From a phage: 64,000 nt of DNA. Below are positions 3,134 to 5,359 of this stretch, one piece after another. The notes beneath the pieces were generated by a model. That model was given only the letters and a program-made list of their open reading frames with translations, was not told the DNA's origin and searched no databases. The stretch lies in the NCBI GenBank assembly GCA_012401045.1, contig GCA_012401045.1_4704.1; one strand, 5' to 3'. Both the position numbers and the translations under genes were made by a program. Numbering within the stretch: position 1 is the first letter of the stretch; every line of letters begins with the position of its first letter.

Positions 3134-5359
3134 TTAGCAATGGTTGTTAGTTGCTTCTATTTCATCAAGATACGGTTCTACGTCATCGCCCTCCACGAAT
3201 TCGTTGAACCAACAGTCAATGGTAGAAATAACCGGCGACTGGTGTTCACATTTCTTAGATACCTTAAAAGGTACGTTATTATCCATCATACCGAGTTCGG
3301 GTCGAAAACGCCCGAAATGTTTCGCAGTCCAAATGTCTGGGACGATATGGTTGTTCATCGTAGTGTTCAGCATGAGTCGCTACCTCATACCCGCAGCTTT
3401 ACCTGCAGCTTCCGGTGTTACCGGAATGTCCAGAATATATCTTATCCATATTCCAAATGGAACGTAGGACTTCCGCGCTGGATCTCGCTTGAGACCACGT
3501 ATTCGTTGAACGTTCTCCTGAACGGAGCTTCGCTGCTGATCGAACATTGTCACGTACGGTAGGCATCCCCGAAGGGATTGTCATTGAAGCCGCGTACATC
3601 CGCTACCTTGTTTCTACCTTATCGGTTCCTCTTACGAGGCGTAGCAGCCTTAGCCCTTCCCAGCAATTCACGGAATCCAAGCTCTTCCTTTCGGAAGGCA
3701 GGGCCTATGATTAAGCGTCACCGTCGCTGTTTATCGACTATATCTTCATCCTCGTTGCGAGGAGTCTCCCGTTTTGGTCTGTGTTTAACAGAGCCTACTC
3801 TACTCGACATCGCGTCTTTCGATAGTCTGTGAGCACACATCTTAACAAACATTCGTGGATTCCTAAACAGGTGAATGTTCTTGTTGAGATGCTTCGCTGC
3901 GGATTATTCCCGTCCTACCTCTTTTACCGTACCCAGTTCATTACGCTGGCCCTCATCTATGTCACCACGATGAGTTGGTGTGTAGTCCGATTACAGAAAC
4001 TTCCCGTCAATTAGAGAGCTTTAACTACGTTCCTGTTACCAGAAACCCGACTCCGACGGCATCAATAAATCAACATAAGTTATTGATTTAATTGAAAAAA
4101 CTGAAGTCGGCATTATAACCTTTGAGGATCATCACGCTTAACCCGATGGTGTTATCCTGCGGATCGCGTTTAACCTTGGTGATTTCAAGACATTGGTTAC
4201 TGCTTCGGTCAAGTGATGGGTTTCGAACAAAGCCGCACACAATCCCATCGAACGGTGTATCAGCAATAAGCTCATCGTGCAGCTCGCTCATCATCGGATG
4301 ATAATTACGGACATGTTCCGCAACGAACGCACGCGCTGCTCTCGGTGAATAACCACGATGGAATAACTTGGATTGGATATGTTCTTTATTGGTTAAAGTA
4401 AATGGTGCGTATGGGAAATGCAGATGATAATAACGATGGTTCGCTGTTATCGAACTGATTACGGTACGCGTGGTGAATGGATGTAATGTACCTAATATGT
4501 TTTTACGTGTAATACCTTTCTTCTTACCGATGAACTCATCGAAAATCGCCGCGTGGTATTGCAGTAGCTTCAATTGCACTTTCGCCATCCAGTTTTCTTT
4601 CTTTCTGGCGCTCAAAGGTGTTGTTGGATGATAGATACTGTTCAACGTACCGATAGCATCGATCGCACCTTCCATTTTGCTATCCGCATAACGACCGGTT
4701 GGCGTATTCTCGATAACGAACATCATGGCCGCAGGAAAGCTGATATACTGACTGAAGAACTTATCACGATGGATACGGATGAATTCTCGTAGCGTGTCAA
4801 CTTTCTCCGTGTTCTTCGGTCCACGTAACGTCGGTCCTTTATACAAGATCTCCATGATGCGATCGAAGTTCTGTATAAAACTATTTACACCGCGACGTAT
4901 CCCGAATACATCGAATTGCTGCTCCAGATAGTTCTTGAGTTCGATGGGTCGTTTTACATTTGGACGGTAACTGGCATCAATGAGCCACGTCATCGTTTCA
5001 AAGCTTTTGATATTCAACTCGCTTGCCAGCACGAGATGGACCAACGGGTTAATGAACGCATCGATTCCTTCAGGAACACGCGCCCAAACCGTCGAACGAA
5101 TCTCCTGTTCTGCCGGGTAGGTCACAACCGTTTTACAGTTTGGACACACCGTGCCGAGTAGCTCACCACGATTGTAGAAACCACAACCACACTGTGGTGT
5201 GATATCCAGCGTATCGCTGGAGTAAACACGGGTGATAAAACTGTTTAATTTCTTCTTCTCTTCGACGACTTTTGTATCGTAATCATTCAACAAAATCGGC
5301 GTAAAAGGAAGTTCTGCGAGCTGTCTATCGAAACTCACGATATCGAGCATGATGGCCAT
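3134..5359 (-). CDS. RNA polymerase beta' subunit, N-terminal fragment (non-virion-type); coding sequence interrupted: exon 1 4104..5359, candidate micro-exon 3714..3726, exon 3 3134..3367 (spliced product about 500 aa)
   Basis: Exon 1 has zinc-ribbon CGCG...CPNC, RKNILG...TRTVIS and ends ...GYNADF (RpoC-like); downstream frame has HIVPDIW...GMMDNNVP; AGGAGA SD before ATG 5359. Confidence 0.7.
3368..3713 (-). ncRNA. group I intron B (candidate, ORF-less, about 346 nt)
   Basis: Minus-strand elements AAUUGCUGGGAAG (P), AUCAGCAGCGAAGC (Q), GUUCAGGAGAAC (R-like), AUAAGAUAUAUUCUGGAC (S); GAAA-capped hairpin; boundaries uncertain. Confidence 0.5.
3714..3726 (-). other. candidate 13-nt micro-exon CGACGGUGACGCU supplying (F)-D-G-D-A of the beta' catalytic loop
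   Basis: Lies between omega-G of intron A and the second intron; in frame with exon 1; P10 pairing CGACGG with guide CCGUCG. Confidence 0.45.
3727..4103 (-). ncRNA. group I intron A (ORF-less, about 377 nt)
   Basis: Minus-strand P AAUUGACGGGAAG, Q AAUCCGCAGC, R CACAGACUA, S AAGAUAUAGUC in canonical order; guide GGAGUCGG pairs exon end CCGACUU with U.G at splice site. Confidence 0.75.

What the first reader, a model, noticed from the sequence alone, without database searches (positions are those of the whole stretch)
3727..4103. Group I intron A: core elements plus P1/P10 guide pairing define both splice sites
On the minus-strand RNA the canonical elements occur in order and with typical spacing: P AAUUGACGGGAAG, Q AAUCCGCAGC, R CACAGACUA, S AAGAUAUAGUC (R/S give the P7 pairing GACUA/UAGUC). 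A guide sequence CCGUCG-GAGUCGG (about 4047..4060) pairs its 3' half with the exon-1 end CCGACUU (7 bp, terminal U.G wobble at the 5' splice site after 4104). Its 5' half pairs 6 bp with CGACGG, which immediately follows a G at 3727 (candidate omega-G), giving P10. The intron is about 377 nt and has no homing-endonuclease ORF.
Basis: seen in the sequence. Interest (0 to 1): 0.8.

Follow-up and report, generated by a model that had tools for sequence, protein, structure and literature searches.

The report
Group I intron splitting phage RNA-polymerase gene
This is a genuine 377-base group I intron with no reading frame of its own, sitting in the catalytic-site codons of an RNA-polymerase gene of a Goslar-like jumbo phage; it is a classical kind of element whose near-identical copy is already annotated in phage Goslar, although it lies in an unusually crowded cluster of introns.

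Summary
The observation and the interpretation both hold.

- **Model match.** Rfam Intron_gpI matches 4094..3727 over the full model, at 49.3 bits and E 1.6e-9 for the whole window. That is 0.7 bits under the gathering score, so the default scan is silent.
- **Guide sequence.** The guide at 4059..4047 is the only 13/13 complement of the ligated junction CCGACUU|CGACGG in the window, and 0 of 5000 shuffles match it.
- **Host gene.** The intron sits in the non-virion RNA polymerase beta-prime gene (phiKZ gp55 homologue), next to chimallin. Splicing rebuilds the catalytic motif NADFDGD.
- **Natural controls.** Seven copies of the intron keep 99% of my proposed pairs, and P1 shows two compensatory changes. 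Five related phages have an empty site (GAY TTY GAC GG).
- **Already annotated.** Phage Goslar (98% identical) carries "Intron_gpI" here, plus a 1065-bp HNH endonuclease cassette that the window lacks.
- **Short exon 2.** It is only 13 nt and is followed by a second intron (3713..3359). Relatives carry up to three introns at four sites within about 30 nt.

It is a new member of a known kind and of modest interest. Self-splicing itself is inferred, not tested.

The parts
4104..5359 (-). Exon 1 of the non-virion RNA polymerase beta-prime N-terminal subunit gene (phiKZ gp55 homologue). It ends ...AAT GCC GAC TT.
   Evidence: The ORF 5359..4088 runs 5 codons into the intron before a stop. tblastn matches chimallivirus RNAP beta/beta-prime genes. 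The gene lies next to the chimallin gene, as in Goslar, PhiPA3 and Eowyn.
4104..4110 (-). 5' strand of P1 (CCGACUU). The 5' splice site follows U4104.
   Evidence: It forms 7 bp with 4053..4047, with a U4104-G4053 wobble. Two pairs covary in five relatives.
3727..4103 (-). Group I intron A, 377 nt, with no ORF.
   Evidence: Rfam RF00028 at 49.3 bits, E 1.6e-9. 97.6% identical to the intron annotated in Goslar. Across seven copies, 99.2% of 728 pair cells are paired.
4062..4094 (-). Hairpin inside the P1 loop (P1 extension), 12 bp with one bulge.
   Evidence: Read from the sequence. 98.8% of cells are paired across 7 copies, but the pairs are almost invariant.
4047..4060 (-). Internal guide sequence. 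4053..4047 pairs with exon 1 (P1). 4059..4054 pairs with exon 2 (P10). G4060 can add a seventh pair in some copies.
   Evidence: It is the only 13/13 complement of the ligated junction in the window, and 0 of 5000 shuffles match it. P10 pairs change only G-C to G-U. The seventh pair is broken in 3 of 7 copies.
4029..4046 (-). P2 hairpin, 7 bp, with a GUAA loop.
   Evidence: 100% paired, with U-G to C-G and U-A to U-G changes.
3896..4018 (-). Span holding the 5' strand of P3 (4018..4014), P4 (P element 4012..4000 with bulged A4007, Q element 3905..3896), and P5 with three extra hairpins.
   Evidence: Rfam alignment. Helices 5-10 are 100% paired.
3833..3897 (-). P6 with a long extension (P6a, P6b).
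   Evidence: 100% paired. One compensatory pair (C-G to U-A) and two one-sided changes.
3735..3831 (-). Catalytic core. P7 comprises the R element 3831..3823 (with bulged A3828) and the S element 3746..3736. Also here are the candidate P7.1 and P7.2 hairpins (3822..3776), the 3' strand of P3 (3770..3766) and P8 (3763..3749).
   Evidence: Rfam alignment. P7, P3, P7.2 and P8 are 100% paired but nearly invariant. P7.1 is 92.9% paired.
3727..3727 (-). Terminal G (omega-G). The 3' splice site follows it.
   Evidence: It is the last position of the Rfam match. It is followed by the P10 target CGACGG. The empty-site alleles fix the insertion point.
3714..3726 (-). Exon 2, a 13-nt micro-exon CGACGGUGACGCU. 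It supplies the last base of the Phe codon and then Asp-Gly-Asp-Ala.
   Evidence: The reading frame and the gap-free alignment with intron-less homologues. L131 and L137 carry this stretch joined directly to both neighbouring exons.
3359..3713 (-). Group I intron B, 355 nt, with no ORF. It has a short P1 (GCU|UA with UAGGC).
   Evidence: Rfam at 20.9 bits here and 28 bits for the copy in L009. The stems I assign as P2, P7 and the 3'-terminal hairpins show compensatory changes among five copies. The site is empty in L131-L133 and L137.
3134..3358 (-). Exon 3 (MNNHIVPD... to the stop codon). Goslar annotates it as a separate hypothetical protein.
   Evidence: Alignment to the C-terminal ends of PhiPA3 gp054, DT01 and Eowyn. 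Goslar annotation.

Best explanation
Window 4103..3727 (minus strand) is a self-splicing group I intron with no ORF of its own. Its architecture is that typical of phage introns: extra hairpins between P7 and P3', extended P5 and P6, and no P9.

It interrupts the non-virion RNA polymerase beta-prime gene of a Goslar-like nucleus-forming jumbo phage. The insertion falls inside the Phe codon of the catalytic NADFDGD motif.

**Mechanism (inferred from the anatomy).** The guide GAGUCGG pairs with the end of exon 1, CCGACUU, placing U4104 in a wobble pair with G4053. A free guanosine bound in P7 attacks after U4104. The guide's 5' half, CCGUCG, then holds the first six bases of exon 2 (P10). G3727 enters the G site and the exons are ligated.

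The next 13 nt are a micro-exon, followed by a second independent intron (3713..3359). Both must be removed to give a 497-aa subunit reading ...GYNADFDGDAMNNH....

**Mobility.** The window's copy has no endonuclease, so it cannot mobilise itself. Goslar's copy carries an I-HmuI-like HNH endonuclease cassette just before the terminal G. The occupied site should be immune to that enzyme.

**Shown:** the sequence elements, their statistical uniqueness, the covariation, the empty-site alleles and the restoration of the motif. **Inferred:** catalysis, the order of splicing and the mobility behaviour.
For: - Rfam RF00028 matches over the full model at 49.3 bits, with E 3.6e-11 and 1.6e-9.
- The guide is uniquely complementary to the ligated junction, 13/13, and 0 of 5000 shuffles match it.
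- Over 7 natural copies, my 104-pair structure is 99.2% paired, against about 40% when the partners are slid. Three pairs have compensatory changes, two of them in P1.
- Empty-site alleles occur in L009, L131-L133 and L137.
- The spliced product aligns without gaps to PhiPA3 gp054, DT01 and Eowyn across NADFDGD.
- Pfam RNA_pol_Rpb1_2 scores 36.9 bits when spliced and 15.8 bits unspliced.
- The orthologous Goslar feature is annotated Intron_gpI.
- Goslar's extra 1065 bp encodes an HNH_3 plus NUMOD1 protein flanked by a 14-bp stem.
- Introns in phiKZ gp55 and other chimallivirus RNAP genes are reported in the literature (PMC11512511, PMC11620839).
Against: - The Rfam score is 0.7 bits under the gathering score, and 46.5-46.9 bits for the copies in relatives.
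- There is no P9. Only 8-9 nt separate P7 from the terminal G.
- P3 has only 5 bp.
- The minimum free energy is not unusual (z = -1.35). The minimum-energy fold cannot include the P3/P7 pseudoknot.
- The seven copies are 93-98% identical, so most core pairs never vary. The P1 covariation probably reflects a single evolutionary event.
- I have no RNA or protein data.
Confidence: 0.9

Rival explanations
1. It is a decayed, catalytically dead intron relic. The gene would then be expressed as separate polypeptides: the 423-aa exon-1 ORF and the 79-aa ORF starting at ATG 3373. This would fit the general pattern of jumbo-phage polymerases being split into several genes.
For: The score is below the Rfam gathering score. 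P9 and the endonuclease are missing. Exon 3 has its own upstream in-frame ATG at 3373. Goslar's annotators called the pieces separate genes.
Against: Without splicing, the subunit would lack two of the three catalytic aspartates, which are encoded only by the 13-nt micro-exon. All core pairings are intact in seven copies, and P1 has co-evolved with silent exon changes. The exons keep exact register with intron-less homologues.
Confidence: 0.05
2. The intron is real, but the main splicing outcome differs from the one proposed. One possibility is exon skipping, in which exon 1 is joined directly to exon 3. Another is use of a different 3' site, because the micro-exon is so short.
For: Exon skipping by closely spaced group I introns is documented for phage Twort orf142 (Landthaler and Shub 1999, known to me from the reference list of PMC11878797; the paper itself was not readable here). 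Only 13 nt separate the two introns. P1 of intron B is weak, with 3 exon base pairs.
Against: Joining exon 1 to exon 3 gives GAC TT+A TGA, which shifts the frame onto a stop directly after the junction and loses the Asp-Gly-Asp codons (read directly from the sequences). P10 of intron A specifies the micro-exon precisely. Both introns have their own empty-site alleles in nature, which implies independent units.
Confidence: 0.04
3. The resemblance to a group I intron is a chance occurrence in an intergenic spacer.
For: No match is reported at the Rfam gathering threshold. The folding energy is unremarkable.
Against: E is 1.6e-9 for the window. The guide is unique. The element is absent precisely at the predicted boundaries in related genomes. 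Removing it restores a catalytic motif.
Confidence: 0.01

Closest known systems
Annotated 'Intron_gpI' ncRNA of Escherichia phage vB_EcoM_Goslar (MK327938 Goslar_00187; NC_048170 HOV27_gs001)
   Same: It lies in the same gene at the same insertion point. It is 97.6% identical over 373 nt, with the same guide sequence and the same downstream intron B.
   Different: Goslar has a 1065-bp cassette just before the terminal G. It holds a 336-aa HNH_3/NUMOD1 endonuclease ORF between the arms of a perfect 14-bp stem. The window has only 'AC' there. The Goslar records do not join the exons and do not annotate intron B. I found no mention of introns in the Goslar genome paper.
Intron of phiKZ gp55 and its relatives (seen here in phiKZ-like phage T2P)
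   Same: It interrupts the same polymerase subunit gene at the same catalytic motif. It is a group I intron (80.4 bits) with remnants of an HNH ORF. The phiKZ gp55 intron is cited in PMC11512511.
   Different: It is inserted 8 nt upstream, between the Asn and Ala codons (N|ADFDGD). It belongs to the other intron lineage, sharing its 3' tail with introns B, C and D rather than with intron A.
PhiPA3 gp210 intron in the virion RNA polymerase beta gene (Birkholz et al. 2024, PMC11620839)
   Same: It is a putative group I intron in a chimallivirus polymerase gene, inserted next to conserved aspartates. It carries an HNH nicking endonuclease of the type present in Goslar's copy of intron A.
   Different: It lies in a different polymerase and a different subunit. 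Its endonuclease is present and has been shown experimentally to nick the rival phage's gene and confer a competitive advantage. Nothing of that kind has been tested for this element, and the window's copy has no endonuclease.
Classical phage group I introns of subgroup IA2 (T4 td, nrdB and nrdD; SPO1-family DNA polymerase introns with I-HmuI)
   Same: They share the P/Q/R/S consensus, extra hairpins between P7 and P3', insertion in catalytic-site codons of an essential enzyme, and optional I-HmuI-like endonuclease ORFs. Part of P4-P6 gives weak blastn matches (72-74% identity) to unannotated stretches of several Bacillus phage genomes; I did not check whether those stretches are introns. The subgroup comparison rests on my own knowledge.
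   Different: The host gene differs, the window's copy has no P9, and I did not test the subgroup assignment against a subgroup-specific model.
Staphylococcus phage Twort orf142, one gene with three group I introns (Landthaler and Shub 1999)
   Same: Several independent group I introns are packed into one phage gene.
   Different: Here the introns lie within about 30 nt of coding sequence and are separated by 13-nt exons. Their presence varies between near-identical genomes. I could not read the Twort paper to compare exon lengths.

Membership tests
Group I intron (Rfam RF00028) | Significant full-length match to the family covariance model | tested here: met
   49.3 bits over model positions 1-253/253, with E 3.6e-11 and 1.6e-9 on the whole window. 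This is 0.7 bits below Rfam's curated gathering score of 50, so the default scan is silent.
Group I intron (Rfam RF00028) | P1 helix between the end of the 5' exon and an internal guide, with a U-G wobble at the splice site | tested here: met
   CCGACUU (4110..4104) pairs with GAGUCGG (4053..4047), with U4104 opposite G4053. All 7 copies are 100% paired, with two compensatory pairs. The guide is unique in the window.
Group I intron (Rfam RF00028) | Terminal guanosine at the 3' splice site | tested here: met
   G3727 is the last matched model position. It is conserved in all 7 copies.
Group I intron (Rfam RF00028) | Conserved core helices P3-P8, including the P4 (P/Q) and P7 (R/S) pairings | tested here: met
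   The Rfam alignment and my manual structure agree. P3, P4, P5, P6, P7 and P8 are 100% paired in 7 copies, against about 40% with slid partners. Most of these pairs are invariant, so they say nothing for or against by covariation.
Group I intron (Rfam RF00028) | Precise removal restores a continuous, conserved host gene | tested here: met
   NADFDGD is rebuilt and the product aligns without gaps to intron-less homologues. The Pfam score rises from 15.8 to 36.9 bits. Natural empty-site alleles exist.
Group I intron (Rfam RF00028) | Guanosine-dependent self-splicing | not testable with these tools
   This needs in vitro transcription with GTP labelling, or junction reads from infected cells.
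Subgroup IA2 (phage-type group I introns) | Additional P7.1 and P7.2 hairpins between P7 and the 3' strand of P3 | tested here: inconclusive
   A 46-nt insert at this place folds into two hairpins. P7.2 (3795..3776) is 100% paired but invariant. P7.1 is 92.9% paired with two broken cells. No subgroup-specific model was available.
Mobile (homing) group I intron | An intron-encoded homing endonuclease ORF | tested here: not met
   The window's copy is 377 nt and the short ORFs tested have no Pfam match. Goslar's copy has an HNH_3/NUMOD1 ORF. The window's copy is therefore an endonuclease-less allele and is not itself mobile.

The most novel reading that the evidence does not exclude
The roughly 30 nt that encode the catalytic loop (KGYNADFDGDAM) of the Goslar-group non-virion RNA polymerase are a battleground for at least four independently inserted group I introns from two lineages.

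In 12 near-identical genomes I find six combinations: A+B, A(+HNH)+B, C+A+B, D+B, D alone and C(+HNH) alone. Up to three introns are separated by 13-nt micro-exons. In the window the first six bases of the micro-exon form P10 of the upstream intron (a seventh pair is possible) and its last three form part of P1 of the downstream intron.

If so, occupancy by an endonuclease-less intron such as the window's intron A would act as immunity against the endonuclease of a co-infecting relative. The system would then be a natural snapshot of the gain, decay and loss cycle of homing endonucleases, and of competition between introns, inside a phage nucleus where splicing is uncoupled from translation.
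Probability: 0.45. Interest if true: 0.55.

Novelty: new member of a known kind. Interest (0 to 1): 0.35.

Why it matters
For annotation, the beta-prime subunit of the Goslar-group non-virion RNA polymerase is mis-annotated. Public records show a truncated 423-aa protein plus an unrelated 79-aa "hypothetical protein". The real product is a 497-aa protein from three exons that carries the catalytic aspartate triad.

For biology, this adds a well-defined case to the emerging picture that nucleus-forming jumbo phages carry introns in the catalytic sites of their polymerase genes. In PhiPA3, the endonuclease of such an intron is a weapon in phage-phage competition.

Natural alleles of the same intron exist with and without the endonuclease. 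Empty sites and neighbouring introns only 13 nt away also exist. Together these give a ready-made system for testing intron homing, immunity by site occupancy, and the coordination of two ribozymes that share one micro-exon. None of this changes what is known about how group I introns work.

Tried and rejected
- **Default Rfam scan of the window.** It reported nothing. The match appears only with an E-value threshold.
- **Minimum-free-energy folding of the intron.** It was uninformative (z = -1.35), because the fold cannot include the P3/P7 pseudoknot.
- **Search for a strong guide for intron B.** No run longer than 3 exon base pairs turned up. I accepted a short P1 (GCU|UA with UAGGC) only because the related copies keep it with compensatory changes.
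- **Scan of viral contigs for the 14-mer TAATTGACGGGAAG.** It gave over 120 mostly unrelated loci. nhmmer with intron A found only weak relatives there (L062, L035, L112). L062 and L035 are bona fide group I introns in other genes, but I did not use them for covariation.
- **Candidate pairing between the 3' tail (UAAACAG, 3733..3727) and the P6b loop (CUGUUUA, 3870..3864).** Dropped. It gives only -6 kcal/mol, is not the best partner in the intron, and is weak in other copies.
- **Literature search for a description of the Goslar intron.** The Goslar genome paper has no occurrence of 'intron'. Reviews of nucleus-forming phages discuss only the PhiPA3 case.
- **Twort three-intron paper.** It could not be opened.
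Full report
**1. What is in the sequence**

| Element | Sequence | Coordinates |
|---|---|---|
| P | AAUUGACGGGAAG | 4012..4000 |
| Q | AAUCCGCAGC | 3905..3896 |
| R | CACAGACUA | 3831..3823 |
| S | AAGAUAUAGUC | 3746..3736 |
| Guide | CCGUCG-GAGUCGG | 4059..4047 |
| End of exon 1 | CCGACUU | 4110..4104 |
| Terminal G | G | 3727 |
| Start of exon 2 | CGACGG | 3726..3721 |

The interval 4103..3727 is 377 nt.

**2. Is it more than chance?**

- The default Rfam scan of the whole window reports nothing, but only because the match falls 0.7 bits short of the curated threshold.
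- With an E-value threshold, RF00028 (Intron_gpI) matches 4094..3727 over the entire model (1-253/253) at 49.3 bits. E is 3.6e-11 on 1.4 kb and 1.6e-9 on the full window. The match ends exactly on G3727.
- The 13-nt guide pairs at all 13 positions with the ligated junction CCGACUU|CGACGG. None of 5000 dinucleotide-preserving shuffles of the intron reaches 13. It is the only such 13-mer on either strand of the 64-kb window.
- The folding energy alone is unremarkable (z = -1.35). The minimum-energy fold cannot include the P3/P7 pseudoknot.

**3. Host gene and the effect of splicing**

The window is 98.3% identical to Escherichia phage vB_EcoM_Goslar. The interrupted gene lies next to the chimallin (nuclear shell) gene. 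It is the homologue of phiKZ gp55 and PhiPA3 gp054, the N-terminal beta-prime subunit of the non-virion RNA polymerase.

Exon 1 ends AAT GCC GAC TT and exon 2 begins C GAC GGT GAC GCT. The ligated sequence therefore reads N-A-D-F-D-G-D-A, the universal catalytic magnesium-binding motif of beta-prime.

The reading frame then meets a TAA. The rest of the protein (MNNHIVPD...) starts 355 nt further on. The stretch between (3713..3359) is a second group I intron, here called B:

- Rfam gives 20.9 bits here and 28 bits for a diverged copy.
- It has a U before the 5' site and a G before the 3' site.
- Among five copies it shows compensatory changes in the stems I assign as P2, P7 and the 3'-terminal hairpins.

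Exon 2 is thus a 13-nt micro-exon (3726..3714). With both introns removed, the 497-aa product aligns without a single gap to the intron-less proteins of PhiPA3, pPa_SNUABM_DT01 and Eowyn across NADFDGD and beyond. Its Pfam RNA_pol_Rpb1_2 score is 36.9 bits against a cut-off of 25.3. The exon-1 ORF alone scores 15.8 bits.

**4. Comparative evidence**

Scans of viral and metagenome contigs gave eleven other Goslar-group genomes. Their intron content in this short stretch differs:

| Genome(s) | Introns present |
|---|---|
| Window | A + B |
| Goslar | A with an HNH cassette + B |
| L010, L134, L135, L136, L138 | C + A + B |
| L009 | D + B |
| L131, L132, L133 | D only |
| L137 | C with an HNH ORF only |

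The insertion sites are:

- C: GGG T|AT
- D: AAC GCT|GAC
- A: GAC TT|C
- B: GAC GCT|ATG

The genomes without A read GAC TTT GAC GG or GAT TTC GAC GG continuously. They are natural empty sites and confirm the insertion point.

I aligned the seven copies of intron A and counted a 104-pair structure written from the sequence: P1, P1 extension, P10, P2-P8, P7.1 and P7.2.

- 99.2% of 728 cells are standard pairs, against 39-43% when the 3' partners are slid by 1-3 columns.
- Three pairs carry compensatory double changes.
- Two of these are in P1. Where the exon reads CAGAUUU instead of CCGACUU (silent changes in the Ala and Asp codons), the guide reads GGAUCUG instead of GAGUCGG.
- P10 changes only between G-C and G-U. 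A possible seventh P10 pair (G4060 with U3720) is broken in three copies.

Caveats: the copies are 93-98% identical, most core pairs never vary, and the P1 changes are probably one event.

**5. Relation to Goslar's annotated intron**

Both Goslar records already carry an ncRNA feature "Intron_gpI" at the homologous place. The existence of this intron is therefore not new. I found no published description, and the Goslar genome paper has no occurrence of the word "intron".

Goslar differs from the window by 1065 extra bases that replace "AC" immediately before the terminal G. They consist of a perfect 14-bp stem (UUACGUGCACCGAC with GUCGGUGCACGUAA) around a 336-aa ORF with HNH_3 and NUMOD1 domains and a weak I-HmuI-like match.

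The window's copy, like five others, has neither the ORF nor any P9 hairpin. Only 8-9 nt separate P7 from the terminal G. The endonuclease of L137's intron C is a 27%-identical homologue of Goslar's.

**6. Mechanism**

The best-supported reading is a conventional group I ribozyme.

1. The guide docks the end of exon 1, with U4104 opposite G4053.
2. An external guanosine attacks.
3. The guide's 5' half holds exon 2 through P10.
4. G3727 replaces the external guanosine in the P7 site and the exons are joined.

The first six bases of the micro-exon serve P10 of intron A, with a possible seventh pair in some copies, and its last three serve P1 of intron B. The two ribozymes need not compete for the same bases. 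The order of splicing is unknown.

Lacking an endonuclease, this copy cannot home on its own. Because it disrupts the presumed target site, it should protect the genome from the Goslar-type enzyme. This is an inference by analogy with other homing systems and with PhiPA3 gp210 (PMC11620839).

**7. Comparison with what is known**

Group I introns in catalytic-site codons of essential phage genes are classical. Introns in phiKZ gp55 and other chimallivirus polymerase genes are cited in PMC11512511. An HNH-bearing intron in the PhiPA3 virion polymerase has been studied functionally (PMC11620839).

The phiKZ-type intron, seen here in phage T2P, sits 8 nt upstream of site A (N|ADFDGD). It shares its 3' tail with introns B, C and D rather than with A. 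Xanthomonas phage LucasX has yet another intron two codons further upstream.

Intron A's P4-P6 region gives weak blastn matches (71-76% identity) in three places: a stretch annotated as an RNAP beta fragment in PhiPA3 (gene 065), a hypothetical gene of Pseudomonas phage HPP-Temi, and unannotated stretches of several Bacillus phage genomes. I did not check whether these stretches are introns. The extra hairpins between P7 and P3' suggest subgroup IA2, but I could not test that with a subgroup model.

**8. Verdict**

The element is a new, endonuclease-less member of a known kind, and its orthologue is already flagged in GenBank.

What is less ordinary is the context. Up to three introns are packed into about 30 nt of catalytic-site codons, with 13-nt micro-exons between them. 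Occupancy varies between genomes that are otherwise 93-98% identical. That context, rather than intron A itself, accounts for the modest interest score.

Noticed in passing
window 3359..3713 (minus strand), with micro-exon 3714..3726: A second ORF-less group I intron (B, 355 nt) lies only 13 nt downstream of intron A. Rfam gives it 20.9 bits. Its P1 has just 3 exon base pairs (GCU with GGC). Related copies show compensatory changes in the stems I assign as P2, P7 and the 3' hairpins.
   Followed up: partly
L009 5241..5975; L010 5240..6365; L131 3975..4345; L137 855..2245: Twelve Goslar-group genomes carry six different combinations of four introns (A, B, C, D). The insertion sites lie within about 30 nt of the KGYNADFDGDAM-coding stretch. 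L010-type genomes have three introns and two 13-nt micro-exons. No fully intron-less allele was seen.
   Followed up: partly
L001 4671..5735 (Goslar): The 5' arm of the stem around Goslar's HNH cassette reads CCGACUUC. This is identical to the last 7 nt of exon 1 plus the first nt of exon 2, so it could be a second substrate for the intron's own guide. The chance expectation for such a match is about 1.6%.
   Followed up: no
L009 5612..5625: The copy of intron B in L009 has C instead of U just before the 5' splice site (GAU GCC|AGAGCC...). That gives a C-G pair where group I introns almost always have a U-G wobble.
   Followed up: no
L009 5241..5600 and L131 3980..4330: Intron D is a 78-85% identical relative of intron B, inserted 18 nt upstream after AAC GCT. 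The five exon bases before the splice site (ACGCU) are the same as at B's site. This suggests transposition to a look-alike site recognised by the short P1.
   Followed up: partly
L137 917..1880 versus L001 4707..5717: The endonuclease ORF inside intron C of L137 sits in the P1 loop. It is a 27%-identical homologue (E 2e-26) of the one inside intron A of Goslar, which sits just before the terminal G. Related endonucleases therefore occupy different introns at different positions.
   Followed up: partly
window 3134..3373 and 4088..5359 (minus strand); Goslar gp247 and gp185: Public Goslar records annotate exon 1 as a complete 'RNA polymerase beta subunit' ending in intron-encoded residues (SFFN). 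They annotate exon 3 as a separate hypothetical protein. The exons are not joined, and intron B is not annotated.
   Followed up: yes
L006 2395..2441; L010 5565..5608; L009 5555..5600; window 3359..3400: Introns B, C and D and the phiKZ-type intron of phage T2P share a conserved 3'-terminal hairpin module (GGGUAUGgAGUAGCGAaCCAUACUGAAgA...), although their cores differ. Intron A lacks it.
   Followed up: no
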